Assembly: GCA_963717315.1 (NCBI GenBank)
Contig: CAVQWA010000056.1
Location: 5,960-69,959 of the forward strand
Length of the DNA: 64,000 nt
DNA from: an uncultured Gemmatimonadales bacterium
GTDB lineage: Bacteria > Gemmatimonadota > Gemmatimonadetes > Gemmatimonadales > GWC2-71-9
Reading direction: 5' to 3'
Below the pieces are notes generated by a model, which was given only the letters and a program-made list of their open reading frames with translations, was not told the DNA's origin and did no database searches. Numbering within the stretch: position 1 is the stretch's first letter; every line of letters begins with the position of its first letter. A program made the translations under genes and the position numbers. Positions 23,100-55,445 of the stretch are shown here, piece by piece.

Positions 23100-24592
23100 C
23101 CTGGCGGCTCGAGGCCATCGGCGGGGAGCAGGCCTGGGTCCTGCCCCGGGGTCGGCCCGCGGTTCTCGGCCGCGACCCGGAGTGCGACCTCGTGGTGCTC
23201 GACGCGACGATCTCGCGCCGCCACGCGCAGCTCACCTCGTACGAGGCGGGCGTGGAGGTGCGCGACCTCGGGAGCTCGAACGGCACGCTGCTCAACGGCG
23301 CCGGCGTCGAGGTGGCGCTGGCCGGCGACGGCGACACTCTCACCTTCGGCGGGGCCTCCTTCACGCTGCGCGCACCGGCCATACCGGGCGGACCCACGCC
23401 GGCGGGCGAGATGGTCCGGCACCTGCCCCTGGGTGACGCCGATGAGGCGCTGGCCGGCGCGGGTGAGGGCGAGCGGCTCGCGCGGCTGCTCGACGTGGCC
23501 CGCCGCTTCGCCGCCGAGCCCGACCTCGGCGCGCTGCTCGACACCATCGTCCGCGCCGCGCTCGAGCTCCTCGGCGCCGACCGGGTGGCGCTCCTCCTCG
23601 CCGAGGAGAAGAGCGGCGAGCTCATCCCCGCCGCGGCACGGAGCCGCACCGGGCCGCCGGGCGAGGTGCGGGTCCCGAAGACCATCGTCCGCGCCGCCAT
23701 CGAGGGCCGGGAGGCGCTGCAGACCGACAACGCGCCGGCGGACCCGCGCTTCCGCGGCGCGTCGGTCAAGCTGCTCAACGTGCGGAGCGCACTCGCCGCC
23801 CCGCTGCTGGGCGACACCGGACCTCTCGGCGTGCTCTACGCCGACCTGCTGGGCGACCGGAGCTTCACCGAGGAGGACCTCCAGCTCCTGGCCGCGTTCG
23901 CCGGCCTCGCCGCGGCCGCGCTCCGGAACGCCCGGGCGCAGCAGGCGCTCCGGCGCGGGGCGCTGCTCCGCTCCAACCTCGAGCGGTTCGTGGCGCCCGA
24001 CGTGGCCGCGGCCATCGCGAAGGCGCCCGGAGGCCTCGTGCCCGGCGGCGTCCGGCGGCACATCGTGGTCCTCTTCTGCGACATCCGCGGCTTCACCCGG
24101 CTGGCGGAGCAGATGCCGCCCGACACCCTCGCCGCCCTCCTCTCCGAATACTTCTCCGAGCTCGCGGACGTGGTGTTCGAGCACGGCGGCACGCTGGACA
24201 AGTTCATCGGCGACGCGGTGCTGGCGCTCTGGGGCGCGCCGGAACCGCAGGCCGACGCCGCCGACCGCGCGCTCACCGCCGCGCGCGGGATGCGCGACGC
24301 CGTGGCGGCGCTCGACCGGCGCTGGCGAGCGGAAGGCCGGCCCGCGATCGAGGTGGGAATCGGGATCAACGCCGGCGAGGCGTTCACCGGGGTGATCGGC
24401 AGCCCGCGCCGGCTGGAGTACACCGCGGTGGGCGACGTGGTGAACGTCGCGGCGCGGCTCTGCGACGTGGCGGGGCCCGGCGAGATCCTGGTGAGCGGGA
24501 GCCTCCTGATGGCGCTGGCGGTGCAGCGGCCCTCGGTGGAGCCGCGGCCCGGCGTGGCGGAGGGGCGGGAGGTGTACTCGCTGGTCGGGTAG
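23096..24592 (+). CDS. FHA-GAF-class III adenylate/guanylate cyclase
   Basis: GTG overlaps the trpE stop (GTGA). FHA: LGRDPECDLVVLDATISRRHAQL...GSSNGTLLNG. Central GAF-like region. Cyclase: VVLFCDIRGFTRLAE...KFIGDAVLALWGAP...TAVGDVVNVAARL. Confidence 0.9.
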   Translation: MTWRLEAIGGEQAWVLPRGRPAVLGRDPECDLVVLDATISRRHAQLTSYEAGVEVRDLGSSNGTLLNGAGVEVALAGDGDTLTFGGASFTLRAPAIPGGPTPAGEMVRHLPLGDADEALAGAGEGERLARLLDVARRFAAEPDLGALLDTIVRAALELLGADRVALLLAEEKSGELIPAAARSRTGPPGEVRVPKTIVRAAIEGREALQTDNAPADPRFRGASVKLLNVRSALAAPLLGDTGPLGVLYADLLGDRSFTEEDLQLLAAFAGLAAAALRNARAQQALRRGALLRSNLERFVAPDVAAAIAKAPGGLVPGGVRRHIVVLFCDIRGFTRLAEQMPPDTLAALLSEYFSELADVVFEHGGTLDKFIGDAVLALWGAPEPQADAADRALTAARGMRDAVAALDRRWRAEGRPAIEVGIGINAGEAFTGVIGSPRRLEYTAVGDVVNVAARLCDVAGPGEILVSGSLLMALAVQRPSVEPRPGVAEGREVYSLVG

Positions 24593-24657
24593 GCGGACAG
24601 TCGGGCAGTCGGACGGTCGCACAGCTTCACAACCGCCCGACTGTCCGACCGTCCGAC
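24592..24657. repeat. inverted octamer (GTCGGACR / YGTCCGAC) repeat hairpin between convergent genes
   Basis: ggcggacagtcgggcagtcggacggtcgcac ... ccgcccgactgtccgaccgtccgac. cggacagtcgggc pairs with gcccgactgtccg. Spans exactly from stop 24592 to stop 24657. Confidence 0.9.
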
Positions 24658-25226
24658 TACTCCCCGAACCGATACCCCTCCCCCGCCGCCGCCAGCAGGT
24701 CCAGCACCAGCCGCACCGGCAGCCCCATCACGCTGAAGAAGTCGCCCTCGATCCGCTCCACCAGCGCCGCGCCGTAGCCCTGGATGCCGTAGGCGCCCGC
24801 CTTGTCCATCGGCTCGCCGGTGGCGACGTAGGCCCGCAGGAACGCCTCGCCCGCCGGGCGGAAGGTCACCCCGGTCACGTCGGTGGCCACCCGCATCTCG
24901 CCGCCGGCCAGCAGCGCCACCGAGCTCACCACCTCGTGGGTCCGTCCCTGGAGCCGGAGCAGCATCCGCACCGCGTCCTCCGCGTCGGCCGGCTTCTCGA
25001 GGATCTCCCCGTCCCGCACCACGATGGTGTCGGCCCCGAGCACGAGGCGGCCGGGCACGCCCTGCGCCTTCTCCCGCGCGAGCCGGCGGGAATACTCCAG
25101 CGGCGTCTCCCGCGGCAGCGGCACCTCGGGCACCGCGTGCGGGTGCACCAGGACCGGATAGCCCAGCATCTCGAGCAGCTGCTTGCGGCGGGGCGAGGCG
25201 GAGGCGAGGACGATGGTGGGGAGCAT
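24657..25226 (-). CDS. maf: Maf-like nucleoside triphosphate pyrophosphatase (septum formation protein)
   Basis: LASASPRRKQLLE...GADTIV...DKAGAYGIQG, typical Maf. Confidence 0.9.
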   Translation of the reverse strand: MLPTIVLASASPRRKQLLEMLGYPVLVHPHAVPEVPLPRETPLEYSRRLAREKAQGVPGRLVLGADTIVVRDGEILEKPADAEDAVRMLLRLQGRTHEVVSSVALLAGGEMRVATDVTGVTFRPAGEAFLRAYVATGEPMDKAGAYGIQGYGAALVERIEGDFFSVMGLPVRLVLDLLAAAGEGYRFGE

Positions 25227-25334
25227 GGGGAGAGGGGAGAGGGGAGAGGAGAGAGGGGAGAGGGGAGAGGCAAGCCGTGAGCGGTGAGCGGGAGGGGTGC
25301 CTCCCCGACTGTCCGTCTGTCCGACTGTCCGCCT
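25227..25334. repeat. intergenic region built mainly of three repeat families
   Basis: (GGGGAGA)x6 at 25227..25268, (GTGAGCG)x2, the small palindrome gggagg-ggtg-cctccc, then (CCGACTGT)-type octamers x3.5 up to the dtd stop. Confidence 0.9.
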
Positions 25335-27717: not shown

Positions 27718-27787
27718 GTCGAAGGTCAAAGGTCGAAGGCCGAAGGGCGAAGGGCGAAGGCCGAAGGGCGAAGGGCGAGGGTCAGGC
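27718..27787. repeat. (GNCGAAG)n heptamer array, 9 units plus 1 degenerate
   Basis: gtcgaag gtcaaag gtcgaag gccgaag ggcgaag ggcgaag gccgaag ggcgaag ggcgagg gtcaggc. Fills the gap between the ogt stop and the next start. Confidence 0.92.
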
Positions 27788-30431: not shown

Positions 30432-31100
30432 TCAGGCCGTTCCCGTTCCCCGTTCTCTGTTCCCTGTTCCCTGTTCCCCGCCTTGCCCCTCCCTCCGCCT
30501 CCGGCTCTTCTCCCGCGTCCCGCACGTCGCCATCTCGCACCAGCGGCGGAGCCCGTTCCGGCTCCGGTCCACGTACATCCAGCCGCAGTCCGGGCCGGCG
30601 CACGTCCGGATCCGGTCCGCCTCGTCCGACGCGAGGAGCTTCGCCGCCGACCAGACCGCGCCCCACACCGGGGACTCGAGCTTCGACTCGGCGTCCTGCC
30701 AGGCGAGCTCGAGGCCTTCCTTGCCGCGGGCGAGCCGGAGGTGGGGGAGCGCCTCCCCGAGAAGCCGGTTGAGCTCCGCCACGTCCGCCGCGGATGGGGC
30801 GCCGCGCACCCGGGCCGCCATCGCACGCCGGATCGCCTCCCGGGCCCCGTGGGCCAGCCGGAGTGCCGCCGACGCCTCCCGCGGCCGGGTCGCCGCGCGC
30901 GAACCCAGGGCTGCAGCCTCCCGGCGGGACGCCAGCCCGGCGCCCTGGGCCCACTCCACCAGCCGCGCATAGTCGCCCAGCCGATCGTCCACCAGGCCGT
31001 GCGGGGTCCAGTCCACGGTGTTCACCAGGTCGAGCGCGGGGTCCCCGCCGACGAAGCGGAGCGAGTGGCGGGCGGGACGGGGGGCGGCGGCGGTGGCCAT
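30432..31100 (-). CDS. CGNR zinc-finger (ABATE-domain) putative transcriptional regulator
   Basis: N-terminal LRFVGGDPALDLVNTV. C-terminal CAGPDCGWMYVDRSRNGLRRWCEMATCGTREKSRR zinc finger. The final ~19 residues are encoded by a heptamer array. Confidence 0.85.
   Translation of the reverse strand: MATAAAPRPARHSLRFVGGDPALDLVNTVDWTPHGLVDDRLGDYARLVEWAQGAGLASRREAAALGSRAATRPREASAALRLAHGAREAIRRAMAARVRGAPSAADVAELNRLLGEALPHLRLARGKEGLELAWQDAESKLESPVWGAVWSAAKLLASDEADRIRTCAGPDCGWMYVDRSRNGLRRWCEMATCGTREKSRRRREGQGGEQGTGNRERGTGTA
30437..30479. repeat. (CYGTTCC)n heptamer array, about 6 units
   Basis: ccgttc ccgttcc ccgttct ctgttcc ctgttcc ctgttcc cc. Begins 3 nt inside the CGNR stop region. Confidence 0.9.
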
Positions 31101-31620: not shown

Positions 31621-32191
31621 GCACCACCACGATCTCCCGCACCATCCCCATCTCCGCGTGCGCCCGCCGCGACACGGGATCGGGAATCAGGCAGGCCGCC
31701 ACGTAGCGGCCCGGCTCGAGGTCGAGGTCGAGGTGGACCTCCTGGCCGGGCCCCAGGCGCGACACGCCGCCGACCCGGGTGGAGGGGGCGTCCTCGTCCG
31801 CGAGGAACTCGGCGAACGAGACGCCCTCGCCCAGGCGGTGCAGCAGCAGGAGATGGTCCTGGCGCCCCTCGTTGGTCACCCGGATCCGGTGCACGCCCTC
31901 GTCGAGCGTGTCCGCACCCACGAAGGCGAAGTCCACGAGCTCGAGCGTCGCCGTCGCCTTCGGCCCCACGGAGCCGTTGCTGTCGGCGGTGGCCCGGAAC
32001 TCCCGCCACACGCCGTTGGTGACGTACCGGCGGTGGTTGGCGGCCCGCGACATGCTGGCCCAGACGTAGCGGCCCGGCTCGAGGTGGAGCACCAGGCTCG
32101 TCTCCTCGGCCGGCGACACGGGGCTCTCCGACCCGCCGCAGCCGAGCGTGAGCGCCCCCGCGAGGACCGCCGCGAGCGCCGGCGGCCTCAA
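31610..32191 (-). CDS. hypothetical lipoprotein
   Basis: TTG 32191 gives MRPPALAAVLAGALTLGCGG (lipobox). The start overlaps the upstream stop (TTGA). No family recognised with confidence. Confidence 0.65.
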   Translation of the reverse strand: MRPPALAAVLAGALTLGCGGSESPVSPAEETSLVLHLEPGRYVWASMSRAANHRRYVTNGVWREFRATADSNGSVGPKATATLELVDFAFVGADTLDEGVHRIRVTNEGRQDHLLLLHRLGEGVSFAEFLADEDAPSTRVGGVSRLGPGQEVHLDLDLEPGRYVAACLIPDPVSRRAHAEMGMVREIVVVRGK

Positions 32192-32403
32192 GCCTTCTTG
32201 CGCGCCCCGGCCGCGATCAGGCCGACGCCGGCCACCAGGGCCAGGATGCCGGTCCACTGGGGGAACCGCTCGGAGCCTTCGACTTCCGCCTTCACGTCAC
32301 CGATCTCGACCAGCGTCTCCGAGGTCTTCCGGGAGAACTGGCCGGTGAGGATCAGGCCGCCGAGGACGAGCAGCAGCACGCCGACGATGGTGAGGGCACG
32401 CAT
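32188..32403 (-). CDS. small two-helix membrane protein
   Basis: ATG 32403 is preceded by GGAGG. MRALTIVGVLLLVLGGLILTG...WTGILALVAGVGLIAAGARKKA. It is the tail of the artefactual 726-aa ORF. Confidence 0.6.
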   Translation of the reverse strand: MRALTIVGVLLLVLGGLILTGQFSRKTSETLVEIGDVKAEVEGSERFPQWTGILALVAGVGLIAAGARKKA

Positions 32404-32488
32404 GGGACCTCCGGGGGAATGGATGCCTGCCCCGCCAAGGTACTGTCCGGACCCCGGGGGGCGCGAGTGACACCCCTCACACGGCACC

Positions 32489-32514
32489 GGGGGCGGCCAT
32501 CCCGCGCCGCCCCC
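32489..32514 (-). terminator. GC hairpin downstream of glmS (no T-tract)
   Basis: gggggcggc-catcccgc-gccgccccc (9-bp perfect stem). Near-identical in design to the 31552..31574 hairpin. Confidence 0.45.
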
Positions 32515-32521
32515 GCAACCT

Positions 32522-32543
32522 GCCGTCCCGCCGTCCCGCCGTC

Positions 32544-32545
<2 letters not shown>
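32522..32545. repeat. (GCCGTCC)x3 heptamer array abutting the glmS stop
   Basis: gccgtcccgccgtcccgccgtcc, immediately before the stop codon complement at 32544..32546. Confidence 0.85.
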
Positions 32546-34370
<1,825 letters not shown>

Positions 34371-34386
34371 GGGTCCGGTATTCCCC

Positions 34387-35769
34387 TCAGCTCGGCGCGC
34401 CGAGCAGCGCGCGGGTCTCCTGGATCAGCGCCTCCGCCTCCCCGGCGGTGGGCGCCTCGGCGATGAGCCGGACGATCGGCTCCGTCCCCGAGGGACGGAG
34501 GTGCAGCCACCGGTCCGCCCAGCCGAGGCGGAGCCCGTCCCGTTCATCCACCTCGGCGTCCGGGTGCCGGGCCCGGAGCGCCGCAGAGGCCGCCCCCAGG
34601 TCGGACCGGGGCGCCTTGGCCTTCACGATGCAATACCGCGGGGCGGCCTGCACGAGCTCCGACACCCGCCGGCCGGTGCTGGCCAGGAGGGTCAGGAGCA
34701 GTGCCGCCGCCAGCGGGGCGTCCCGGCCGATGTGGAGGGCCGGGAGGATGACCCCGCCGTTCCCCTCGCCGCCGATGACGGCCCCCTCGTCCCGCATCAT
34801 CCGGGCCACGTTGGCCTCCCCGACGGGCGCCCGGAGGTACCGCGCCCCCGCCTCCCGGGCGGCGTCGGCGACGACGAGGGAGGTGGAGAGGTTGGCGACG
34901 ACGGTCGGACGGTCGGACTGTCCGACTGCCCGACTGCCCGACTGTCCCAGCACCGCCCTCACCGCGAACGCCAGCGTGTAGTCCTCCCCGATCGGCTGGC
35001 CGGTCTCGTCCACGATGGCCAGGCGGTCCACGTCGGGGTCCACGGCGATTCCCACGTCGGCGCCGGCCGCGCGCACGAGACGCCCGAGGTCGCCGAGATG
35101 TTCCGGGAGCGGTTCCGGCGGGCGGGGGAAGCGGCCGTCGGTCTCGAGGTTGATGCCTGCCACCCGGCAGCCGAGCCGCTCGAGCAGCGCCGGCATCGTC
35201 GTCCCGCCGGCGCCGCGGACGCAATCGAGCGCCACGGTGAAGTGCCTCGCGCGCACGGTGGCCGCATCCACCTCCGGCAGCGCGAGCACCAGGTCGAGGT
35301 GCCGGGCGATCGCTCCGGCGTCGTCCTCCAACGCGCCGATCCCGTCCCACCCCGCGCGGGCGGGCCCCTCCTCCGCCAGCGCGCGCACCCGGGCGCCCGC
35401 CTCCGCGTCGAGGAAGATCCCGTCCGGGCCCACGAACTTGAGCGCGTTCCACTCGATCGGGTTGTGGCTCGCGGTGAGGATGAGGCCCGCCCCGGCGTGG
35501 TGGTGCTCCACCGCGAGCTGTACCGTGGGCGTGGGGGCGACGCCCACGTCGATCACCCGCGCGCCCACCGACATCAGCCCCGCGGCCGCCGCGCGCGCGA
35601 ACATCGGGCCGCTGGTGCGCGCGTCCCGCCCCAGCACCACCGCCGGCCGGCCGTTCGCCGCGGCCCAGGCGCCGAGCGCGGCGGCATGCCGGGCCACCCG
35701 CTCCGGCGTCAGGTCGGTCCCGACCAGTCCCCGCATCCCGGAGACGCTGATCATCAGGGTGTCGGACAT
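34387..35769 (-). CDS. glmM: phosphoglucosamine/phosphohexose mutase (GlmM-type)
   Basis: ATG 35769 (MSDTLMISVSGMRG). Active-site TASHNPIEWNALK. Metal site DPDVDR. GGEGNGG. This is only the C-terminal third of the 1377-aa ORF in the track. Confidence 0.9.
   Translation of the reverse strand: MSDTLMISVSGMRGLVGTDLTPERVARHAAALGAWAAANGRPAVVLGRDARTSGPMFARAAAAGLMSVGARVIDVGVAPTPTVQLAVEHHHAGAGLILTASHNPIEWNALKFVGPDGIFLDAEAGARVRALAEEGPARAGWDGIGALEDDAGAIARHLDLVLALPEVDAATVRARHFTVALDCVRGAGGTTMPALLERLGCRVAGINLETDGRFPRPPEPLPEHLGDLGRLVRAAGADVGIAVDPDVDRLAIVDETGQPIGEDYTLAFAVRAVLGQSGSRAVGQSDRPTVVANLSTSLVVADAAREAGARYLRAPVGEANVARMMRDEGAVIGGEGNGGVILPALHIGRDAPLAAALLLTLLASTGRRVSELVQAAPRYCIVKAKAPRSDLGAASAALRARHPDAEVDERDGLRLGWADRWLHLRPSGTEPIVRLIAEAPTAGEAEALIQETRALLGAPS
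34899..34948. repeat. octamer palindrome embedded in frame inside glmM
   Basis: gacggtcggacggtcggac-t-gtccgactgcccgactgcccgactgtccc. Translated on the coding strand as ...GQSGSRAVGQSDRP... Confidence 0.9.
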
Positions 35770-35780
35770 CGCGCCGGCCG

Positions 35781-36851
35781 TCAGCTCGAGGAGGCGATCG
35801 GGAGGAGTGCGGGATCGGGAAAGGCGGCCTGGAAGGCGTCCACCACCACGGGATCGAACTGGGAGCCGGTGTGGCGGCGAAGCTCCTCCATCGCGTTGGC
35901 GGGCTCGCGCGCCTCGCGGTAGGCGCGGTTCGTGGTCATCGCGTCGAAGGCGTCCACCACGGCGACGATCCGGGCCTCGAGCGGGATCCGCTCGCCGGCG
36001 AGGCCGTCGGGGAACCCGCGCCCGTCGAGCCGCTCGTGGTGCGACCGGACGATCTGCATCACCGCGGTGCGGTCGCGGAGGAGTGGGGCCAGGATCCGCT
36101 CCCCGTCGGTGGTGTGGCGCTGGATCACCGCGAACTCCTCGTCGGTGAGCGGCCCCGGCTTGTGCAGGATGTGGTCCGCCGTGCCGATCTTGCCGATGTC
36201 GTGGAGCTCGCCGCCGAGCCTCACCTGCTCGAGCCGCTCGCCGGTGAGGCCGAGCCGGACCGCCGTGCCCACGGCATAGCGCGCCACCCGCTGCGAATGC
36301 CCCCGGGTGTAGCTGTCGCGCGCCTCGAGCAGGCGCACCGCGAGCTGGATCTGCTCGACGAAGAGCTCGCGGTTCCGCGCCGTCAGCTCCCGCACCCGCG
36401 ACTCGAGCTGGAGCTGGTAGTACCGGTTCTGGAGCCGGAGCTCGTGTTTCTCCAGCGCCTGGTTCACCCGCGCCCGGAGCTCGTCCACCAGCACCGGCTT
36501 GGACAGGTAGTCGATCGCGCCGTGCTGGAGGCAGTCCACCGCCGTCTGCACCTCCGCCAGGCCGGACAGCATGATCACGACCGTGTCGGGCCGCTTCTCG
36601 CGCAGCACCCGGAGGAGGGCGATCCCGTCCATCCCCGGCATCTGGATGTCGGAGATGACCAGCGGCACGTCGCCGAGCTGTTCCAGGAGCGCGAGCGCCT
36701 CCTCCCCGCCGGCCGCCTCGCGGCAGGCAATGCCGAGGCTCTCGACCATCCGCGTGACCGCCCGCCGGACCACCGGTTCGTCGTCCACCACCAGGCAGCG
36801 GATCGGGGAGCCCCCTCCGTCCGTCGAGGGGCCCGGAAAGGGCTGGGCCAT
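35781..36851 (-). CDS. response regulator with HD-GYP phosphodiesterase domain (RpfG-like)
   Basis: REC (LVVDDEP...VISDIQMPGMDG...YLSKP) followed by HD-GYP (GGELHDIGKIG...HHERLDGRGFPDG). Confidence 0.9.
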   Translation of the reverse strand: MAQPFPGPSTDGGGSPIRCLVVDDEPVVRRAVTRMVESLGIACREAAGGEEALALLEQLGDVPLVISDIQMPGMDGIALLRVLREKRPDTVVIMLSGLAEVQTAVDCLQHGAIDYLSKPVLVDELRARVNQALEKHELRLQNRYYQLQLESRVRELTARNRELFVEQIQLAVRLLEARDSYTRGHSQRVARYAVGTAVRLGLTGERLEQVRLGGELHDIGKIGTADHILHKPGPLTDEEFAVIQRHTTDGERILAPLLRDRTAVMQIVRSHHERLDGRGFPDGLAGERIPLEARIVAVVDAFDAMTTNRAYREAREPANAMEELRRHTGSQFDPVVVDAFQAAFPDPALLPIASSS

Positions 36852-36957
36852 GCCGTAAGTTAGCGGTCCACCGGAACCTGCGACAACGCCCCGCTTGCCG
36901 CCCGCCGGGGGCGGGGCCTACGTTTCGGTCCTCCCTTCCCCGGTCCGGCCGGTCCCG

Positions 36958-38130
36958 ATGACCCACGTTGAGCCCAGCGACATCGATCACGCCCTCGCCA
37001 CCCGGGCGGTGCACGCCGGCCAGGCGCCGGACCCCCTCTCCGGGGCGGTGATGACGCCGATCTACCAGACGAGCACCTACGTCCAGGAAGGGCTTGGCAG
37101 GAACAAGGGCTACGAGTACGGCCGCACCCGGAACCCCACCCGCGACGCGCTCGAGCGGAACATCGCGAGCCTCGAGGGGGGAGCGAACGGGTTCGCCTTC
37201 GCCTCCGGCCTCGCGGCCACCGACGCGGTGATGAAGCTGCTCAAGGCCGGCGACCACGTCGTCTGCGGGGAGAACGTGTACGGCGGCACCCACCGGCTGA
37301 TCGAGCGGATCTACGGCCCCCTCGGCATCCAGGTGACCTTCGCCGACCTGCGCGACGTGGCCAATGCCGAGCGCGCCATCACGCCCGCCACCCGGATGCT
37401 GTACGCCGAAACCCCCACCAACCCGATGATGGCGCTCTGCGACCTCTCGGCGGTGGGCGACCTGGCGCAGGCCCGCGGGCTCCTCTTCGTGGTGGACAAC
37501 ACCTTCGCGACTCCGGTCTTCCAGCGCCCCCTCTCGCTCGGCGCCGACGTGGTGCTTCACTCCACCACCAAGTACCTGAACGGCCATAGCGACATGGTGG
37601 GCGGGATGCTGGTGACGAGCCGCGACGACCTCGCCGAGCGGTTCGCGTTCATCCAGAACGCCTCGGGGGCGGTGCCGGGGCCGTTCGACTGCTGGCTGGC
37701 GCTCCGCGGCACCAAGACCCTCCCGCTCCGGATGAAGCAGCACGATGCCAACGGCCGCGCGGTCGCGGCGTGGCTCAAGGGGCGGAAGGAGGTCGTGAAG
37801 CTCTACTATCCCGGCCTCCCGGATCATCCGCAGCACGAGCTGGCGGCACGGCAGATGAGCGGCTTCGGCGGGATGATCTCGCTCGACCTGGGCGACGCCG
37901 AGCGGGCCCGCCGGTTCGTCGGCGCCACGAAGCTCTTCGCCCTTGCCGAGTCGCTCGGCGGGGTGGAGAGCCTGATCGGGCATCCGGCCTCGATGACCCA
38001 CGCCTCGGTGCCGAAGCCGATGCGGGAGGCGATGGGCCTCACCGACAGCCTGGTGCGGCTCTCGTGCGGGATCGAGGAGGTGGGGGACCTGGTTGCGGAC
38101 CTGGAGCAGGCGTTCGGGGCGAGTCGGTGA
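36958..38130 (+). CDS. cystathionine gamma-synthase/beta-lyase family PLP enzyme
   Basis: ATG 36958 (MTHVEPSD). TRAVHAG...IYQTSTY...HSTTKYLNGHSD (PLP lysine)...RLSCGIE. Confidence 0.92.
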   Translation: MTHVEPSDIDHALATRAVHAGQAPDPLSGAVMTPIYQTSTYVQEGLGRNKGYEYGRTRNPTRDALERNIASLEGGANGFAFASGLAATDAVMKLLKAGDHVVCGENVYGGTHRLIERIYGPLGIQVTFADLRDVANAERAITPATRMLYAETPTNPMMALCDLSAVGDLAQARGLLFVVDNTFATPVFQRPLSLGADVVLHSTTKYLNGHSDMVGGMLVTSRDDLAERFAFIQNASGAVPGPFDCWLALRGTKTLPLRMKQHDANGRAVAAWLKGRKEVVKLYYPGLPDHPQHELAARQMSGFGGMISLDLGDAERARRFVGATKLFALAESLGGVESLIGHPASMTHASVPKPMREAMGLTDSLVRLSCGIEEVGDLVADLEQAFGASR

Positions 38131-38205
38131 GTCGAACGGTCGGACAGGAACCGCCCGACCGCCGACTGTCCGACTGTCGGACTGTTCGACCGCCGTACTG
38201 TCGCA
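38122..38205. repeat. nested inverted octamer (GTCGGAC/GTCCGAC) repeats
   Basis: gtcgaacggtcggacagg...ccgactgtccgac-t-gtcggactgttcgac. Central perfect palindrome gtccgac-t-gtcggac. Starts within the stop region of the upstream gene. Confidence 0.88.
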
Positions 38206-38266
38206 ACTTGAAACACCCCGGGCGGCTCTACCGTAAGGGGGCCAGCCCTCACCCGGAGTCCCGGCC

Positions 38267-39286
38267 ATGACCACCATCCCCGCCCCCCGGCCCCGCGTCG
38301 CCTTCCCCGGCATCTCGGGCGTCTCGTGGGAGCATCCCGCCGACCGCGCGGCACTGCAGGCGCTGCGCTCCATGCCCGGCTTCGACGAGGCGGTCCGGAA
38401 GATCATCTCCTTCATCGGCGGGGAGCGGGGCGTCCGGCTCCTCTTCCAGGGGAACGCGGTGCGCGCAGGCGCCGACCAGTTCCCCCGGCTCCACGCCCTC
38501 CACGTCGAGAACGTCGCCACCTTCGACTGGCCCGAGATTCCCGAGCTCTACGTCTCCCAGACGCCGGTCTTCAACGCCGGCGCCTACGGGGTGGACCATC
38601 CCTTCATCGTGATCCACTCCGCCGCGCTCGAGCTCCTCACCGAGGACGAGCTCCGGGTGCTGCTGGCCCACGAGATGGGCCACGTGGTGAGCGGCCACGC
38701 CCTCTACCGCACCATCGCCGCGATCCTGCTGGCGGTGAGCTTCTCCGCGCTCCCGATCCTCGCCGGCATCGCGCTCCTCCCGATCCGGCTCGCGATCCTC
38801 GAGTGGAGCCGGAAGGCGGAGCTCTCGGCCGACCGCGCGGGGCTCCTCGGCAGCCAGGACGTGCGCGCCACCCAGTCGCTCTTCCTCAAGATGGCCGGCG
38901 GGGTGCACGAGGGTCAGCTCTCCGGCGAGCCGATGAACCTCGACCGGTTCATCGCCCAGGCGCACGAGTACGCCGCGAGCAGCGAGGGGCTCGACCTGCT
39001 CTACAAGATCCTCAACACCCTCGCGCTCTCCCACCCGATGCACACCATCCGCGCCGCGGAGCTGCAGCGCTGGGTGGCGAGCGGCGAGTACGAGCGGATC
39101 CTGCGGGGCGAGTACGTCCGCCGCGGGCACGAGCAGCAGGAGCGGCCGGTCGGGCCCGACCTGAAGGAGGCCGGCGCCTACTACGCGCAGGAGGCGCGGG
39201 AGGTGGCCGGGAAGGTGGCCGACGCCGCGAAGAGGGCGGCGGAGATGGCCCAGGAGGCCTTCCGGAAGGCGCAGCAGAAGGCGTGA
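38267..39286 (+). CDS. M48-family zinc metallopeptidase
   Basis: HEMGH motif (LLAHEMGHVVSGH). Downstream E (ELSADRAG). Hydrophobic segment between them. Confidence 0.88.
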   Translation: MTTIPAPRPRVAFPGISGVSWEHPADRAALQALRSMPGFDEAVRKIISFIGGERGVRLLFQGNAVRAGADQFPRLHALHVENVATFDWPEIPELYVSQTPVFNAGAYGVDHPFIVIHSAALELLTEDELRVLLAHEMGHVVSGHALYRTIAAILLAVSFSALPILAGIALLPIRLAILEWSRKAELSADRAGLLGSQDVRATQSLFLKMAGGVHEGQLSGEPMNLDRFIAQAHEYAASSEGLDLLYKILNTLALSHPMHTIRAAELQRWVASGEYERILRGEYVRRGHEQQERPVGPDLKEAGAYYAQEAREVAGKVADAAKRAAEMAQEAFRKAQQKA

Positions 39287-41490
39287 GGATCCTGGTCGTC
39301 GGCGGCGGCGGCCGCGAGCACGCGCTCTGCTGGGCGGCGCGCCGCGAGCATCCCGAGGCCGAGCTCTGGTGCGCGCCGGGGAACCCCGGCACCGCCGCCG
39401 TCGCGACCAACCTCCCCGTCGCGGCCGACGATCTCGGCGGGATCGTCGCGGCCGCGCGGGAGCACACCACCCACCTCGTCATCGTCGGCCCCGAGGCGCC
39501 GCTGGCACTGGGCCTCGCCGACCGGCTCCGCGCCGAGCGTTGCCCCGTGTTCGGGCCCTCCGCCGCCGCCGCGCGGCTCGAGGCCTCCAAGGCGTTCGCC
39601 AAGGAGGTGATGGCGCACGCCGGGGTGCCCACCGCCGCGAGCCGCACCTTCACCGACGGCACGGCGGCGCTGGCGTACGTGGCGGCGCACGCGGAGCCGC
39701 TCGTGGTGAAGGCGTCGGGCCTCGCCGCCGGGAAGGGCGCGATCGTCTGCGCCACGCGGGCCGAGGCCGAGGCTGCGGTGCGTGCGATGCTGGTGGAGGG
39801 AAAGTTCGGCGAGGCGGGGCGCACCGTGGTGGTGGAGGAGTTCCTCCGGGGCGAGGAGCTCTCGGTGCTCGCCATCACCGACGGGGAGGAGGTGGTGCTC
39901 CTCCCGCCGTCGCAGGACCACAAGCGGCTGGGCGAGGGCGACACCGGCCCGAACACCGGCGGGATGGGCGCCTACAGCCCCGTGGCCATCGCCACCCCCG
40001 CGCTCCTCGGCCGCGCCATCTCCACGGTGATCAAGCCCACGCTCGCGGCACTCCGCGACCTCGGCGCCCCGTTCAGCGGGCTCCTCTACGCCGGGCTGAT
40101 GGTGGAGGAGGACGGCACGATCAACGTGGTGGAGTTCAACTGCCGCTTCGGCGACCCCGAGGCGCAGGTGGTGCTGCCGCTGGTGCGGGAGGGGTTCACG
40201 GACTGCCTCCTCGCGGTGGCGGAGGGGAGGTCACCCACCCCGTTGAGGCTGAGCCGGGACGCCGCGGTCACCACCGTGCTCGCCGCGCGGGGCTATCCCG
40301 ACGCACCGGAAAAGGGTGCCGCCATCACCATCCCCACGGACCTCCCCGCCGGCGTGACCGTCTTCCACGCCGGCACCAATCGTGACGCCGACGGCACCCT
40401 CCGGGTGAATGGCGGCCGGGTCCTCAACGTCACCGCCGTGGCGCCGACGTTCGAGGCGGCGCAGTTCCTCAGCCGCGACGCCGCCGACCGCATCGCGTTC
40501 GAGGGGAAGACCTGGCGGCGGGACGTGGGGTGGCGGGAGGCCGAGCGGCGGACGGGCGGGAAGGCGGCGGGAGCGGCGGGTTGCGCCCTCCTGCAACTCG
40601 CCGTCCCGCCCTCCCGCCGCCTATTCTTCCCCCGTGCCCGAGCTCCCCGAAGTCGAGACCATCGTCCGCGACATCCGGCCCCGCCTGGTGGGCCGGACCA
40701 TCACGCGGGCTTCCCTCTCCCACGACGACGTCCTCCGCGGGGTCACGAAGCGGAGGCTCCTCGCCGCCCTCGCGGGCGCGCGGATCGTGGCGGTCGAGCG
40801 CCGGGCCAAGCACGCCGTCCTCACCCTGCTCCCCTCTCCCCTCTCCCCTCTCCCCTCTCCCCGACTCGTCATCCAGCCCGGCATGTCCGGCTCCCTCATC
40901 GTCCACGACGCGCCCCTCCGGCGGGCCCAGGCCGCGTACGCCGTCCTCCGCGCCCCGCTCGACGACGGCGCCGAGCTGGTCTACCGCGACGTGCGCCGGC
41001 TCGGCACCCTGCTCCTCCTCGACACCGGGGGCTGGGCCGCGTACGACGCCGCCATCGGGCCGGAGCCGCTGGCCCCCGACTGGACGCCGGAGGCTCTCCT
41101 TCGCACCTTGAAAGGAAGTCGGCAGGCGGTGAAGAAGGTGCTGATGGACCAGCGGAAGGTCGCGGGAGTGGGGAACATCTACGCCAACGAGGCGCTCTGG
41201 GCCGCACGGGTGGACCCGTCCCGCCCCGCCTGCCGGGTCACCCCCGCGGAGGCGGAGGCGCTGCACGGCCACGTGCGCCGGATCCTCGCCGCCGCCATCC
41301 ACTCCAAGGGCACCACGCTCCGCGACTATCGCACCGGCACCGGCGGGCGGGGCAGCTTCCAGCTCGAGCTCTTCGTCTACGGGCGGGAGGGAGAGCCCTG
41401 CCGCGCCTGCGGCACGCGGCTCGCCGGCACCCACGCCATCGACGCGCGCATCACCGTCTTCTGCCACCGCTGCCAGGCCTGAACGAGTGA
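39283..41490 (+). CDS. purD: phosphoribosylamine--glycine ligase PurD; homology ends near 40560 but the frame has no stop until 41490
   Basis: GTG overlaps the M48 stop (GTGA). MRILVVGGGGREHALCW...full ATP-grasp...FEGKTWRRDVGWREAER matches the usual PurD C-terminus. The frame then runs through a hairpin repeat and across mutM out of frame. Confidence 0.85.
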   Translation: MRILVVGGGGREHALCWAARREHPEAELWCAPGNPGTAAVATNLPVAADDLGGIVAAAREHTTHLVIVGPEAPLALGLADRLRAERCPVFGPSAAAARLEASKAFAKEVMAHAGVPTAASRTFTDGTAALAYVAAHAEPLVVKASGLAAGKGAIVCATRAEAEAAVRAMLVEGKFGEAGRTVVVEEFLRGEELSVLAITDGEEVVLLPPSQDHKRLGEGDTGPNTGGMGAYSPVAIATPALLGRAISTVIKPTLAALRDLGAPFSGLLYAGLMVEEDGTINVVEFNCRFGDPEAQVVLPLVREGFTDCLLAVAEGRSPTPLRLSRDAAVTTVLAARGYPDAPEKGAAITIPTDLPAGVTVFHAGTNRDADGTLRVNGGRVLNVTAVAPTFEAAQFLSRDAADRIAFEGKTWRRDVGWREAERRTGGKAAGAAGCALLQLAVPPSRRLFFPRARAPRSRDHRPRHPAPPGGPDHHAGFPLPRRRPPRGHEAEAPRRPRGRADRGGRAPGQARRPHPAPLSPLPSPLSPTRHPARHVRLPHRPRRAPPAGPGRVRRPPRPARRRRRAGLPRRAPARHPAPPRHRGLGRVRRRHRAGAAGPRLDAGGSPSHLERKSAGGEEGADGPAEGRGSGEHLRQRGALGRTGGPVPPRLPGHPRGGGGAARPRAPDPRRRHPLQGHHAPRLSHRHRRAGQLPARALRLRAGGRALPRLRHAARRHPRHRRAHHRLLPPLPGLNE
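40563..40621. repeat. GC-rich inverted repeat at the expected purD end
   Basis: ggcggcgggag (40563..40573) is the exact reverse complement of ctcccgccgcc (40611..40621). Flanked by GGGA/GGCG-type short repeats. Confidence 0.75.
40634..41482 (+). CDS. mutM: formamidopyrimidine-DNA glycosylase
   Basis: GTG 40634 gives (M)PELPEVETIVRDI. RRAKH...GMSGSL. H2TH KVLMDQRKVAGVGNIYANEALW. C-terminal zinc finger CRACGTRL...FCHRCQ. Confidence 0.88.
   Translation: MPELPEVETIVRDIRPRLVGRTITRASLSHDDVLRGVTKRRLLAALAGARIVAVERRAKHAVLTLLPSPLSPLPSPRLVIQPGMSGSLIVHDAPLRRAQAAYAVLRAPLDDGAELVYRDVRRLGTLLLLDTGGWAAYDAAIGPEPLAPDWTPEALLRTLKGSRQAVKKVLMDQRKVAGVGNIYANEALWAARVDPSRPACRVTPAEAEALHGHVRRILAAAIHSKGTTLRDYRTGTGGRGSFQLELFVYGREGEPCRACGTRLAGTHAIDARITVFCHRCQA
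40831..40862. repeat. (CCCCTCT)x4 heptamer array embedded in frame inside mutM
   Basis: cccctctcccctctcccctctcccctctcccc. Encodes LPSPLSPLPSP between RRAKHAVLTL and RLVIQPGMSGSL. Confidence 0.9.
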
Positions 41491-42566
41491 CCGCGGTCCT
41501 CCCCTTCGCCGCCGCCGACCACGAGGTGCTGCTCGAGCGGGTGAAGCGGCTGGCGGAGAACCGGCCGGGGACCTATCGCATGACCGACGAGGCGGGCCGG
41601 CTGCTCTACGTCGGCAAGGCCAAGCGGCTCCGCACCCGGCTCCTCACCTATTTCCGCGCCGCTCCCGAGGACAAGGCCGCCCGGATCCTCCAGGCGGCGC
41701 GGAACGTCGCCTGGGAATACGCGCCGAGCGAGTTCGCCGCGGGGCTCGCCGAGCTGCGGCTCATCCGCCGCCACCGGCCGCCGTACAACGTGCAGTACAA
41801 CCGGAACCGGCGGCTCGCCTTCGTCCGGGTCACCGCGGAGGCCGCCCCGCGGGTCCTCGTGGCGGCGGCGCCGGGCGAGAGCGGCCGGAGCTACGGGCCG
41901 TTCGCCGCGCCCTCGCGCGTGACCGAGGCGGTGCGGGTGCTCGGCGACCTGCTCGGCCTCCGGGACTGCGGCGCGAAGATGCCGGTGGTCTTCGCCGCGC
42001 AGGAGGACCTCTTCACGGCGCCGGCGCTGGCCGCCTGTCCCCGGCACGCCTTCGGCACCTGCGCCGGGCCGTGCGCCGGGCTGGTGGCGCAGGCCGCATA
42101 CGCGGCGCGGGTCGAGGCGGCCGCCGCCTTCCTCGAGGGCCGCGCCGTCCGGCCGATCGACCGCGCGGTGGCCGAGATGGCCCGCGCCGCCGGCCAGGAG
42201 GAATTCGAACTCGCGCTGAGGTGGCGCGAGCGCTACGAGGCGCTCGAGTGGCTGCTCGCCACGGTGGCCCGCGCGCGCGCCGCGCGGGACCTCCTCACGT
42301 TCGTCTACCGCGACACCGGGGCCCACGGCGACGACCGGGCCTACCTCGTCCGCGGCGGCGAGGTGCGCGCCGCCTTCCCCTGGCCCGGCACCCCGATCGA
42401 GGCGGAGGCGTTCCGCGCCGTCGTCCGGGAGGAGCTCGCCCGGCCGATGGACCCGACCGGCCCGCTCCCCCTCGACCGGGCGGACGAGATCCTGCTGGTG
42501 ATGAGCTGGTTCCGCCGGCACCCGGAGGCCCTTCGCCGGACAACGCCGCTCGCGGAATGGACCTAG
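41487..42566 (+). CDS. UvrC-like GIY-YIG nuclease domain protein (Cho-like)
   Basis: GIY-YIG module GTYRMTDEAGRLLYVGKAKRLRTRLLTYF...EFAAGLAELRLIRRHRPPYN. Shorter than full UvrC. Confidence 0.8.
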   Translation: MTAVLPFAAADHEVLLERVKRLAENRPGTYRMTDEAGRLLYVGKAKRLRTRLLTYFRAAPEDKAARILQAARNVAWEYAPSEFAAGLAELRLIRRHRPPYNVQYNRNRRLAFVRVTAEAAPRVLVAAAPGESGRSYGPFAAPSRVTEAVRVLGDLLGLRDCGAKMPVVFAAQEDLFTAPALAACPRHAFGTCAGPCAGLVAQAAYAARVEAAAAFLEGRAVRPIDRAVAEMARAAGQEEFELALRWRERYEALEWLLATVARARAARDLLTFVYRDTGAHGDDRAYLVRGGEVRAAFPWPGTPIEAEAFRAVVREELARPMDPTGPLPLDRADEILLVMSWFRRHPEALRRTTPLAEWT

Positions 42567-42604: not shown

Positions 42605-42775
42605 CCGACTCTCCGACTGTCCGACCGTCCGACCGTCCGACCGTCCGACTGTCCGACCGTCCGACCGTCCGACCGTCCGACCGTCCGACTGTCCGACCGT
42701 CCGACCGTCCGACCGTCCGACCGTCCGACCGTCCGACTGTCCGACCGTCCGACCGTCCGACTGTCCGACTCCGAC
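42605..42775. repeat. 21-unit phased octamer array (CCGACYGT) plus one truncated unit
   Basis: CCGAC recurs every 8 bp from 42605 to 42765 (21 units). The spacer alternates CGT/TGT. A final out-of-phase CCGAC lies at 42771. Confidence 0.95.
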
Positions 42776-55308: not shown

Positions 55309-55401
55309 GGGAGCCCCCTTGGTGGGCGGGCGGCCGAGCGCCGCCCCACCACCAGTCTGGGCCCCGGGGCCGGGTTCCGGAAGTGACGGGGAGCACGGGC
55401 C

Positions 55402-55445
55402 GGCAGTCGGACAGTCGGGCCGTCGGACAGTCCGACCGTCCGTCT
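55402..55445. repeat. octamer palindrome (GTCGGAC-a-GTCCGAC core)
   Basis: ggcagtcggacagtcgggccgtcggacagtccgaccgtccgtc, ending at the stop of CDS 55444..56196. Confidence 0.9.

What the first reader, a model, noticed from the sequence alone, without database searches (positions are those of the whole stretch)
34899..34948. Octamer palindrome inserted in frame inside the essential glmM-type mutase gene
The intergenic-type element gacggtcggacggtcggac-t-gtccgactgcccgactgcccgactgtccc sits inside the CDS. It translates as about 14 extra residues (QSGSRAVGQSDR) just before the conserved VVANLSTS segment. The reading frame stays intact on both sides. This resembles the in-frame palindromic-element insertions known from Rickettsia (RPEs), but here with a tandem-octamer element.
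Basis: partly seen in the sequence, partly recalled or inferred. Interest (0 to 1): 0.7.

Follow-up and report, generated by a model that had tools for sequence, protein, structure and literature searches.

The report
Translated octamer-repeat hairpin in GlmM
A small DNA hairpin made of 8-base repeats, of a kind that normally sits just behind genes in this soil bacterium, lies in frame inside a cell-wall-precursor enzyme gene. It is read as a floppy surface loop. The loop length changes in 8-amino-acid steps between relatives, and the two hairpin arms change sequence together.

Summary
A period-8 tandem array (34899-34947, 6.1 copies) that switches orientation at 34919 lies in frame in a 460-aa archaeal-type phosphoglucosamine mutase gene (34387-35769, minus strand) of a Gemmatimonadales genome. 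It uses the same octamer as five intergenic arrays in the window.

It is not a recent RPE-like insertion. Every member of the surrounding clade (86-94% identical proteins, more than 10 independent assemblies) has an octamer hairpin in this loop, usually longer. Loop lengths of 15, 23, 31 and 39 residues show steps of three octamers; the window allele is the shortest.

Unit sequences differ between relatives and both arms changed together: 14 of 34 stem pairs carry double changes, matched by 0 of 500 shuffles. Derived units are shared with intergenic arrays of the same genome.

Across 79 other species this loop carries 7-9-nt arrays about 8 times more densely than intergenic DNA and about 500 times more densely than other coding DNA.

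The model places the insert in a low-confidence helix-to-strand loop of domain III, with all catalytic motifs intact.

Best reading: a tolerated, translated, slippage-prone quasi-palindrome that evolves in concert with the genome's array family. A role as an mRNA hairpin is not excluded. This is a new variant of known kinds.

The parts
34387..35769 (-). Host gene: archaeal-type phosphoglucosamine mutase (GlmM), 460 aa, with four PGM/PMM domains. Catalytic motifs are intact: TASHNP 99, DPDVDR 244, GGEGNGG 333, RPSGTEP 425.
34899..34947 (-). The tandem-octamer quasi-palindrome itself: 6.1 units of 8 nt, covering codons 275-291 (GQSGSRAVGQSDRPTVV).
34920..34947 (-). 5' arm on the sense strand, G-rich: GGACAGTC GGGCAGTC GGGCAGTC GGAC. 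It encodes GQSGSRAVG(Q).
34899..34918 (-). 3' arm on the sense strand, C-rich: GTCCGACC GTCCGACC GTCG. It encodes SDRPTVV. Its last unit coincides with the native P-T-V-V codons. The centre of symmetry is base 34919.
32544..34370 (-). glmS (glutamine-fructose-6-phosphate aminotransferase, 608 aa). It starts 16 nt after the glmM stop, so the two genes are presumably in one operon.
32520..32543 (-). One-armed octamer array (GACGGCGG x3 on the sense strand) directly after the glmS stop codon. Unit and copy number differ in every relative examined.
32489..32514 (-). Conserved G+C-rich stem-loop (GGGGGCGGC..GCCGCCCCC) after the glmS array. It is a presumed transcript 3'-end hairpin.
35781..36851 (-). 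Upstream gene of the same strand block: response regulator with an HD domain (356 aa), ending 11 nt before glmM. Pfam domains are taken from the orthologous loci.
38131..38202 (.). Intergenic hairpin copy of the same octamer family, starting right after the stop of the Cys/Met-metabolism PLP enzyme gene (36895-38130). The orthologous spacer in relatives holds hairpins with other units.
24584..24658 (.). Intergenic hairpin copy of the same family between two convergent genes. It overlaps both stop codons.
25305..25331 (.). Intergenic one-armed copy (CCGACTGT x3.4) directly behind the stop of gene 25333-25770 (minus strand).
42612..42769 (.). Largest copy of the family: about 20 one-directional units (TCCGACCG) in a gene-free gap.
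55400..55440 (.). Intergenic hairpin copy directly behind the stop of gene 55444-56196 (minus strand).

Best explanation
The element is a translated, slippage-prone tandem-octamer quasi-palindrome. It belongs to a Gemmatimonadales-wide class of 7-8-nt arrays, with a G-rich arm first and a C-rich arm second, that normally sit immediately behind stop codons. One such array became resident in the helix-to-strand surface loop at the start of domain III of GlmM in the ancestor of this clade. The enzyme tolerates any loop of 7 to 39 residues there.

Shown:
- The array is present in all clade members.
- The allele series moves in three-octamer (24-nt, 8-aa) steps.
- The unit sequence turns over with paired changes in both arms.
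- Derived units are shared with intergenic arrays of the same genome.
- An in-frame stop is avoided in a unit that contains TAA.

Inferred:
- Replication slippage adds and removes octamers. Only net changes divisible by three survive, because any other change frameshifts the enzyme.
- Intra-strand template switching between the arms (quasi-palindrome correction), together with exchange with other arrays of the genome, copies new unit variants across arms and loci. This produces compensatory changes without requiring selection on structure.
- The encoded Gly/Ser/Arg/Pro-rich peptide is a disordered, functionally neutral loop on the face away from the catalytic loops.

Because 8 is coprime to 3, each unit is read in all three frames in turn, so only stop-free units can expand.
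For: Identity and frame.

Family: the same 15-mer occurs at five intergenic loci that abut stop codons. In 748 kb of Gemmatimonadales DNA, 71 of 101 arrays are intergenic although only about 21% of the DNA is.

Ancestry: the clade is monophyletic and every member has an octamer hairpin in this loop.

Step series: loops of 15, 23, 31 and 39 residues, plus one of 27 with a 4-nt partial unit.

Co-change of arms: five diverged orthologs align almost without gaps. Of 34 pairs, 14 carry changes on both sides. None of 500 shuffles reaches this, and slid registers give 5 or fewer.

Strand symmetry: sense and antisense strands fold about equally well and the pairs are mostly Watson-Crick, as expected for DNA-level complementarity.

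Within-genome sharing of derived units: CCAGCCAT in the L007 genome, GACGGATG in the L008-like genome, GTCGGRCA in the window and L003.

The same turnover occurs at orthologous intergenic sites.

A hairpin is not required: 8 of 79 other species have one-armed arrays in the loop.

Translation constraint: in L165/L169 the unit TAACCGCC reads TAT exactly where TAA would be in frame.

Tolerance: pLDDT is below 50 at residues 278-284, between helix 263-277 and strand 289-293, and the fold matches solved mutases at TM 0.85. The catalytic motifs are intact.

The template-switch mechanism is established elsewhere (PMC7202029 and PMC8604942).
Against: The loop is a stronger hot spot than permissiveness predicts: 2.34 arrays per kb against 0.31 per kb in intergenic DNA. 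Diverged clade members keep a near-constant length of 90-93 nt and balanced arms. Either fact could reflect selection for the hairpin. Slippage and template switching were not observed directly. Neutrality of the peptide is untested. What moves units between loci is unknown.
Confidence: 0.55

Rival explanations
1. The hairpin is a selected cis-acting RNA structure inside the RR-glmM-glmS operon. Candidate roles are a ribosome pause that lets domains I-II fold, a translation-dependent attenuator, or an mRNA processing or stability site that tunes glmS expression. The peptide would be a by-product.
For: Significant covariation in the stem. Length (90-93 nt) and arm balance are conserved in diverged clade members while the sequence turns over. 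Octamer hairpins with at least nine different units are found in this same loop in separate lineages. Array density in the loop is about 8 times the intergenic density. The genes are packed 11-16 nt apart, leaving no intergenic room for a regulatory hairpin. Intergenic members of the family sit where terminator or 3'-end hairpins are expected.
Against: Most species (modal 12-residue loop, mean z about 0) have no structure here, and 8 have one-armed arrays that cannot form a hairpin. In the window and its nearest relatives the arms are unbalanced (4 against 1.6 units in the window), and the hairpin shrinks to about -25 kcal/mol. There is no sense-strand bias in stability or in G-U pairs. Rfam finds no family and the scan finds no terminator consensus.
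Confidence: 0.17
2. The loop is a preferred target of a mobile or copy-pasted hairpin element (REP/RAYT-like or MITE-like). It is repeatedly re-inserted or overwritten, so each genome's glmM carries that genome's current element.
For: The unit is shared between the glmM insert and intergenic copies of the same genome but differs between genomes. An orthologous intergenic site even changes period, from octamer to heptamer in L001. Many independent lineages are hit at one loop. The native flanks resemble family units in some species: CCGACCGT for P-T-V and GACGG for D-G.
Against: There are no terminal inverted repeats or target-site duplications apart from the array itself, and no fixed element length. 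Clade alleles align position by position without gaps, as expected for descent in place. In the L006 genome the glmM unit diverged while the flanking array kept the ancestral unit. No transposase was identified, although the search was not exhaustive.
Confidence: 0.2
3. The repeat-coded peptide itself is selected, for example as a flexible linker, an interaction site or a modification site on GlmM.
For: The loop is expanded in many lineages, always with hydrophilic, disorder-prone residues (G, S, R, D, P, T, K).
Against: The peptide sequence is not conserved even among proteins 86-94% identical, whereas DNA periodicity and arm complementarity are. Lengths range from 7 to 39 residues. The composition follows directly from G-rich and C-rich units read in all three frames.
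Confidence: 0.06
4. The feature is an assembly or sequencing artefact, or a pseudogene.
For: Repeats can be collapsed or expanded in short-read MAG assemblies, so the exact copy number in any single contig is uncertain.
Against: The same architecture occurs in more than 10 independent assemblies from four sources. The arrays are mostly shorter than a read. The frame is always intact, GC3 is 0.95, the catalytic motifs are intact, and the family score is above the curated cutoff.
Confidence: 0.02

Closest known systems
Rickettsia palindromic elements (RPEs)
   Same: A palindromic repeat normally associated with non-coding DNA is found in frame inside housekeeping genes. It is translated as an extra segment that is compatible with the protein fold (PMC10969869).
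   Different: RPEs are elements of about 100-150 bp with full-length consensus families and a conserved peptide, dispersed by insertion in Rickettsia. Here the element is a 45-117-nt array of 8-nt units with variable copy number, no full-length consensus and unit turnover, and it evolves in place in Gemmatimonadales.
G-rich heptamer simple sequence repeats of Xanthomonas and Nostoc (GGGNATC type; Rehm et al. 2015)
   Same: Both are abundant 7-8-nt tandem arrays that are over-represented in non-coding DNA, lie within about 50 bp of stop codons on the sense strand, vary in unit number, and are sometimes tandemly inverted (PMC4692102).
   Different: [quoted passage not shown] The taxon and the units differ, and G-quadruplex formation was not tested here.
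Tandem repeats of Borg elements that create disordered regions in proteins (Schoelmerich et al. 2023)
   Same: Both are pervasive, fast-evolving tandem repeats found between and within genes. The genic ones add intrinsically disordered segments and avoid stop codons (PMC9879509).
   Different: All genic Borg repeats have unit lengths divisible by three and are direct repeats. Here the unit is 8 nt (7 nt in some relatives), so the frame is kept only by three-unit steps and each unit is read in three frames. The array is also an inverted pair.
Quasi-palindrome template-switch mutagenesis
   Same: Imperfect inverted repeats are corrected arm against arm during DNA synthesis. This gives multi-nucleotide, apparently compensatory changes, including in coding DNA (PMC7202029, PMC8604942).
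   Different: It is known from reporter assays and yeast phylogenies at simple inverted repeats. Its action on tandem-repeat arms here is inferred, not observed.
REP/BIME elements with RAYT transposases
   Same: Both are short G+C-rich extragenic palindromes placed at gene ends. Some REP superfamilies carry a CGTC head (PMC3733652 abstract), and CGTC is part of the GACGG/CCGTC core here.
   Different: REPs are single imperfect palindromes of 20-40 nt, not arrays of 8-nt units, and they are extragenic. No RAYT gene was looked for here.
Phase-variable intragenic simple sequence repeats (contingency loci)
   Same: Both are slippage-prone short repeats inside a reading frame whose unit length is not a multiple of three.
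   Different: Contingency loci switch genes on and off by frameshifting. Here only frame-preserving alleles are seen, in a core metabolic gene (my knowledge for the comparison; allele series).

Membership tests
Rickettsia palindromic elements (RPE) | Element of about 100-150 bp belonging to one of the RPE consensus families, in Rickettsia | tested here: not met
   The element is 49 nt of 8-nt units, the organism is Gemmatimonadales, and copies share only the unit. Definition from PMC10969869.
Rickettsia palindromic elements (RPE) | In-frame location in a protein-coding gene, translated as a fold-compatible insert | tested here: met
   The frame is intact. Codons 275-291 lie between helix 263-277 and strand 289-293, with pLDDT below 50 at 278-284.
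MITE | Terminal inverted repeats distinct from the body, and a target-site duplication | tested here: inconclusive
   No flanking direct repeat is visible beyond the array's own units in eight aligned alleles. A repeat-built element could mask a short duplication.
REP/BIME with RAYT | Single 20-40-nt imperfect palindrome with a conserved GTAG or CGTC head | tested here: inconclusive
   The core hairpin is 15+15 nt and the units contain CGTC/GACG, but the arms are tandem octamers of variable number.
REP/BIME with RAYT | Cognate RAYT (Y1 transposase) gene in the genome | not tested
   Only 64 kb is available, and the window proteins were not scanned for PF01797.
Short-unit (7-9 nt) simple sequence repeats / VNTR | Head-to-tail copies of one short unit | tested here: met
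   Tandem Repeats Finder reports period 8, 6.1 copies, 87% matches.
Short-unit (7-9 nt) simple sequence repeats / VNTR | Copy number varies among close relatives | tested here: met
   Loops of 45, 69, 81, 93 and 117 nt among proteins at least 90% identical.
Short-unit (7-9 nt) simple sequence repeats / VNTR | Family concentrated in non-coding DNA next to stop codons (as for the Xanthomonas/Nostoc heptamers) | tested here: met
   71 of 101 arrays are intergenic against about 21% intergenic DNA. The window copies abut stop codons.
Short-unit (7-9 nt) simple sequence repeats / VNTR | G-quadruplex formation by the G-rich strand | not tested
   Only two of the four sense-strand units in the window have a GGG run.
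Borg-type amino-acid tandem repeats | Genic repeat unit length divisible by three | tested here: not met
   The unit is 8 nt, or 7 nt in L041, L049 and L055. Definition from PMC9879509.
Archaeal-type phosphoglucosamine mutase (TIGR03990) / alpha-D-phosphohexomutase superfamily (host gene) | Family score above the curated cutoff, and four PGM/PMM domains | tested here: met
   488.2 bits against a cutoff of 439. PF02878, PF02879, PF02880 and PF00408 all match. TM 0.85 to 9du5 and 1wqa.
Archaeal-type phosphoglucosamine mutase (TIGR03990) / alpha-D-phosphohexomutase superfamily (host gene) | Catalytic phosphoserine, metal, sugar and phosphate loops | tested here: met
   TASHNP 99, DPDVDR 244, GGEGNGG 333, RPSGTEP 425.
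Archaeal-type phosphoglucosamine mutase (TIGR03990) / alpha-D-phosphohexomutase superfamily (host gene) | GlcN-6-P to GlcN-1-P activity and essentiality | not testable with these tools
   Inferred from the equivalog model and adjacency to glmS.

The most novel reading that the evidence does not exclude
Gemmatimonadales may maintain a genome-wide system of G-first/C-second short-unit repeat hairpins whose unit sequence is rewritten in concert across loci by an active, still unknown process. The copy inside glmM would then be a selected intragenic RNA or DNA structure that couples glmM translation to expression of the glmM-glmS operon, which would explain why this one loop is hit or retained far more often than intergenic DNA.
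Probability: 0.15. Interest if true: 0.85.

Novelty: new variant of a known kind. Interest (0 to 1): 0.62.

Why it matters
The element shows that a repeat whose unit is not a multiple of three can live for a long time inside a core enzyme gene. The reading frame acts as a sieve that passes only three-unit steps and stop-free units.

It gives a natural example of strong stem covariation inside a coding sequence that may arise from DNA-level arm-to-arm copying rather than from selection on RNA. That is a caution for covariation-based discovery of RNA structures.

It exposes an undescribed, abundant class of repeat hairpins behind the stop codons of Gemmatimonadales genes. Their units are genome-specific yet shared between loci, which raises the question of how the sequence moves.

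The allele series is also a ready-made strain marker for an abundant, poorly cultured soil phylum.

Tried and rejected
- Rfam scan of the whole window found no family, so no glmS ribozyme or other known RNA explains the hairpin.
- The sigma-70 promoter and intrinsic-terminator consensus scan of 32000-39000 found nothing at the element.
- A sense-strand bias in stability or G-U pairs would have pointed to mRNA-level selection. None was found: 9 of 16 hairpins are slightly more stable on the sense strand and the differences are small.
- The metagenome scan with the protein was meant to harvest more close alleles.
- The seed hypothesis holds that the native flanks GACGG and CCGACCGT nucleate the array. 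Those strings occur in only 14 and 12 of 85 modal loops, so the idea is suggestive but not sufficient.
- Shared 11-mers between the loop and the 4-kb flanks in other species were mostly absent because the flanks are too short. Only L019, L003 and the window gave hits.
- Literature searches for a description of such arrays in Gemmatimonadota found nothing specific.
- G-quadruplex reading: G3 runs are not conserved across clade alleles, so it was not pursued.
- An RPE/MITE-style discrete insertion was rejected because the alleles align position by position and vary by unit number.
Full report
**1. The observation**

- Tandem Repeats Finder reports 34899-34947 as a period-8 array with 6.1 copies, 87% matches and score 56.
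- The repeat finder reports inverted arms 34904-34918 and 34920-34934, 15 nt long and 87% complementary, separated by one base.

On the plus strand the array reads (GACGGTCG)2 GAC-T-GTCCGACT GCCCGACT GCCCGACT GTCC. It is a tandem array that switches from GTCGGAC-type to GTCCGAC-type units at base 34919.

It lies in an intact minus-strand ORF, 34387-35769, 460 aa, GC3 0.95. It occupies codons 275-291, GQSGSRAVGQSDRPTVV, and VVANLSTS follows.

It is far from chance:
- The 15-mer with up to 3 mismatches occurs 71 times against 14.6 expected, and no shuffle reaches 71.
- The window holds 39 period-7/8 arrays of score 40 or more, against 0.2 in dinucleotide shuffles.

**2. The host gene**

- The protein scores 488 bits on TIGR03990 (archaeal-type phosphoglucosamine mutase; cutoff 439). 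It stays below the cutoffs of bacterial glmM and the PMM/PGM equivalogs.
- It has all four PGM/PMM Pfam domains.
- It matches Thermococcus and Pyrococcus mutases at E about 1e-85.
- The model superposes on those structures at TM 0.85.
- The four catalytic loops are intact.
- glmS starts 16 nt downstream, and a response-regulator/HD gene ends 11 nt upstream (domains from orthologous loci).
- Named homologs are Gemmatimonadales.
- Against 1wqa and 9du5 the alignment opens an 8-residue gap exactly at the array.
- In the AlphaFold model the array lies between helix 263-277 and strand 289-293, with pLDDT below 50 at 278-284.
- A helix-to-strand connection of an alpha/beta domain lies on the side opposite the catalytic strand ends. 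This last point is inference from general fold topology, not from measured coordinates.

**3. The element belongs to the window's intergenic family**

The same octamer, including the exact 15-mer GTCGGACGGTCGGAC, forms arrays at 24584-24658, 25305-25331, 38131-38202, 42612-42769 (about 20 units) and 55400-55440. With a GC3-based gene map, all five are intergenic. Four abut or overlap stop codons. The glmM copy is the only mid-gene copy of this family.

**4. It is not a recent insertion**

I fetched the DNA of the closest homologs (86-94% identical proteins, from JGI, ENA, NCBI and Logan assemblies). Gene order is conserved. Every one of them has a tandem-octamer hairpin in exactly this loop. 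In a neighbour-joining tree built with the loop removed, they form one clade on a long branch.

Loop lengths after the conserved Leu:

| Residues | Nucleotides | Alleles |
|---|---|---|
| 15 | 45 | window |
| 23 | 69 | P0003 |
| 27 | 81 | P0005 (carries a 4-nt partial unit) |
| 30-31 | 90-93 | P0002, P0121, P0004, P0006, P0129, P0007, P0008 |
| 39 | 117 | P0123 |

The nucleotide lengths 45, 69, 93 and 117 correspond to 5.6, 8.6, 11.6 and 14.6 octamers. That is a series in steps of exactly three units, the only step of an 8-nt unit that keeps the frame. The window allele is the shortest, so it is a contraction, not a fresh insertion.

**5. Unit turnover with both arms changing together**

The octamers differ between clade members:

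| Source | Sense-strand 5' arm | 3' arm |
|---|---|---|
| window, L001, L003, L004 | GGRCAGTC | GTCCGACC |
| L005 | GGRCAGGC | GCCCGRCC |
| L006 | GGGAAGAC | TTCCCGTC |
| L007 | GGCTGGAT | ATCCAGCC |
| L008 | GGGTCGAC | GTCCATCC |

- Each allele folds into a long hairpin. MFE is about -46 to -68 kcal/mol for the longer alleles and -24.5 for the window.
- The five 90-93-nt alleles align essentially without gaps.
- RNAalifold predicts 34 pairs, 14 of which carry changes on both sides.
- In the pair count, 82.9% of cells are paired against 73.3% after shuffling.
- None of 500 shuffles reaches the observed number of double changes or the covariation score. Sliding the 3' partner by 1-3 columns gives at most 5 such pairs.
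- Sense and antisense strands fold about equally well, and the pairs are mostly Watson-Crick. The complementarity therefore carries no mark of mRNA-specific selection.

**6. Concerted evolution with other loci of the same genome**

- In the L007 genome the derived unit CCAGCCAT of the glmM insert recurs in the spacer between the M48 peptidase and Cys/Met-PLP genes 3 kb away. The match is 30 nt with 2 mismatches.
- In the L008-like genome the right arm CCGTCCAT is the complement of the GACGGATG x8 array behind glmS, and it resembles CCGTCTAT x4 behind the PLP gene.
- The window and L003 have GTCGGRCA at both places.
- A loop-by-flank matrix of shared 10-mers is strongly diagonal for L007 (22 in its own flanks, at most 3 in others) and for L008 (52 in its own flanks, at most 14 in others).
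- In contrast, the L006 genome kept GTCGGACA behind glmS while its glmM unit diverged.
- The orthologous intergenic sites turn over too. The array between the glmS stop and a conserved G+C-rich stem-loop has a different unit and copy number in each relative.
- The PLP-gene spacer holds octamer hairpins in the window, L003 and L090 but a heptamer hairpin (GGTGAGC/GCTTACC) in L001.

**7. The loop is a hot spot across the order**

In 79 other species genomes the loop is modally 12 residues, at minimum 7, and shows no structure (mean z about 0). With one fixed Tandem Repeats Finder criterion the counts are:

| DNA class | Arrays (period 7-9) | Length | Density |
|---|---|---|---|
| glmM loop | 8 (10% of species) | 3.4 kb | 2.34 per kb |
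| Intergenic | 44 | 143 kb | 0.31 per kb |
| All other mid-gene coding DNA | 2 (both in the glmM of L082) | 478 kb | 0.004 per kb |

- Some of the loop arrays are one-armed: L017, L020, L034, L041, L049, L055.
- Others are hairpins with yet other units: L051; L067 (GGCCGTCN); L143 (GGCGGACA/CCGTCCGN); L165 and L169 (GGCGGTTA/TAACCGCC); L166 (TTGGAAGG/CCTTCCAA).
- L048 and L025 hold a perfect 26-bp palindrome.
- These lineages are scattered on the tree.
- In L165 and L169 the unit contains TAA, and exactly in the one unit where TAA would fall in frame it reads TAT. This is direct evidence that translation filters the array.

**8. Mechanism**

What is shown:
- residence since the clade ancestor;
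- three-unit steps;
- paired arm changes;
- unit sharing within genomes;
- stop avoidance;
- a disordered, tolerated loop.

What I infer:
- Slippage generates unit gains and losses, and the frame passes only net multiples of three.
- Arm-to-arm template switching at quasi-palindromes copies new variants across arms. This process is documented in E. coli and in yeast coding DNA (PMC7202029, PMC8604942). Together with some form of exchange between arrays, it also copies variants across loci, so that 'compensatory' changes need no selection.
- Because 8 and 3 are coprime, every unit is read in all three frames over three units. One octamer therefore specifies an 8-residue peptide period (GQSDSRAV / RPSDRPTV), and only stop-free units can expand.

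What this model does not explain is the excess of arrays in this loop over intergenic DNA, nor the conserved length of about 90 nt with balanced arms in the older clade members. That keeps a selected RNA or DNA hairpin, or a targeted copy-paste process, alive as rivals.

**9. Comparison with known systems**

- The consequence resembles RPEs (in-frame, fold-compatible palindromic inserts; PMC10969869). The defining features are not met: about 100-150 bp, consensus families, Rickettsia.
- The family as a whole resembles the G-rich heptamer repeats of Xanthomonas and Nostoc. Those are also concentrated within 50 bp of stop codons on the sense strand, are variable in number and are sometimes tandemly inverted (PMC4692102). 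However, they are reported as under-represented in genes.
- Borg tandem repeats also create disordered protein segments, but all genic Borg units are divisible by three (PMC9879509).
- I found no description of these arrays in Gemmatimonadota.
- I therefore rate the finding a new variant of known kinds. It is a short-unit repeat hairpin with a unit not divisible by three, fixed inside a core enzyme gene, with three-unit stepping, arm covariation and concerted evolution with intergenic copies.

**10. Limits**

- All relatives are metagenome assemblies, and copy numbers in single contigs could be slightly wrong.
- The covariation test rests on five sequences.
- The gene map is a GC3 heuristic.
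- Surface exposure is inferred from secondary structure and low confidence, not from coordinates.
- Essentiality and neutrality are untested.

Noticed in passing
window, whole (e.g. 2412-2508, 3433-3536, 27720-27826, 46016-46086, 47885-48001, 52386-52522, 56210-56282): Adjacent array pairs always have the G-rich array 5' and the C-rich array 3' (13 of 13 across the window and related loci, never the reverse). This polarity is strand-symmetric, so every gene is followed on its own sense strand by a G-rich array first. Several pairs are not even complementary, for example GGACGGCG then CCCCTCT, and AGTCGCG x12.6 then CCCGTTC.
   Followed up: partly
window 2478-2508, 27796-27826, 30437-30480, 47967-48001: Heptamer arrays run into the 3' ends of predicted ORFs and give repeat-coded C-terminal tails (QGNGERGAGNG, GERGEGRGERE, GGEQGTGNRERGTGTA, AERGEGRGERGEV). 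Arrays behind genes may have overwritten the original stop codons.
   Followed up: no
window 13917-13954, 16908-16941, 54513-54549: A third octamer family (CCGCCGAG / CTCGGCGG) lies inside three different predicted ORFs and encodes AAEPP-type segments in all three. These may be further in-frame arrays. Homologs were not checked.
   Followed up: no
window 42612-42769: About 20 one-directional GTCCGACC units (158 nt, 94% matches) lie in a roughly 600-nt gap without a predicted gene, preceded by GAGAGGG x3 at 42566-42586. This is the largest array of the window.
   Followed up: no
window 32489-32543; L003 6259-6330; L089 3492-3516; L091 4843-4873; L092 5679-5745: Directly after the glmS stop codon every relative has a one-armed octamer array of skeleton GNCGGNNN, followed by a conserved G+C-rich stem-loop. 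The arrays are GACGGCGG x3, GACGGAAA/GACGGCAA x8, GACGGCAG x3, GTCGGACA x4 and GACGGATG x8. Unit and copy number differ at this orthologous site.
   Followed up: partly
L082 1521-1554, 2249-2272, 2571-2598: One species carries heptamer arrays in three different loops of its glmM (near residues 38, 281 and 388). P0101 has TSAVGQLAGSAP, an octamer-type peptide, inserted in the residue-38 loop. So glmM has more than one array-accepting loop.
   Followed up: no
L048 3395-3457, L025 4820-4888: The same GlmM loop holds a near-perfect 26-bp palindrome (CCCCTCCCCCTGGCCCCCTCCCCAC-GAA-GTGGGGAGGGGGCC..., MFE -66 to -68 kcal/mol, z -8 to -10) with the opposite polarity (C-rich arm first). It is translated as PLPLAPSPRSGEGAGGRG.
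   Followed up: partly
L165 and L169, glmM loop: An octamer hairpin with unit GGCGGTTA/TAACCGCC. In the single unit where TAA would be read in frame the sequence is TAT, at the cost of a stem mismatch.
   Followed up: partly
L017 7690-8070: A higher-order repeat of about 122 nt is built from two CT-rich heptamer arrays (CTCTTCA and CTTCTTA/CTTCTCA) with conserved spacers. It is repeated about three times in an intergenic region.
   Followed up: no
window 40824-40862: CCCTCTC x5.4 lies inside predicted ORF 40634-41482 (TLLPSPLSPLPSPR). This is either another in-frame array or a mis-called start. The stretch 39287-40633 has no predicted gene.
   Followed up: no
L019 3895-3952 and 4832-4861: The 9-nt unit (AAGGCGGGG) of the glmM-loop array in this species also forms an array about 900 nt upstream, just before the glmM start. 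This is another case of unit sharing within one genome.
   Followed up: no
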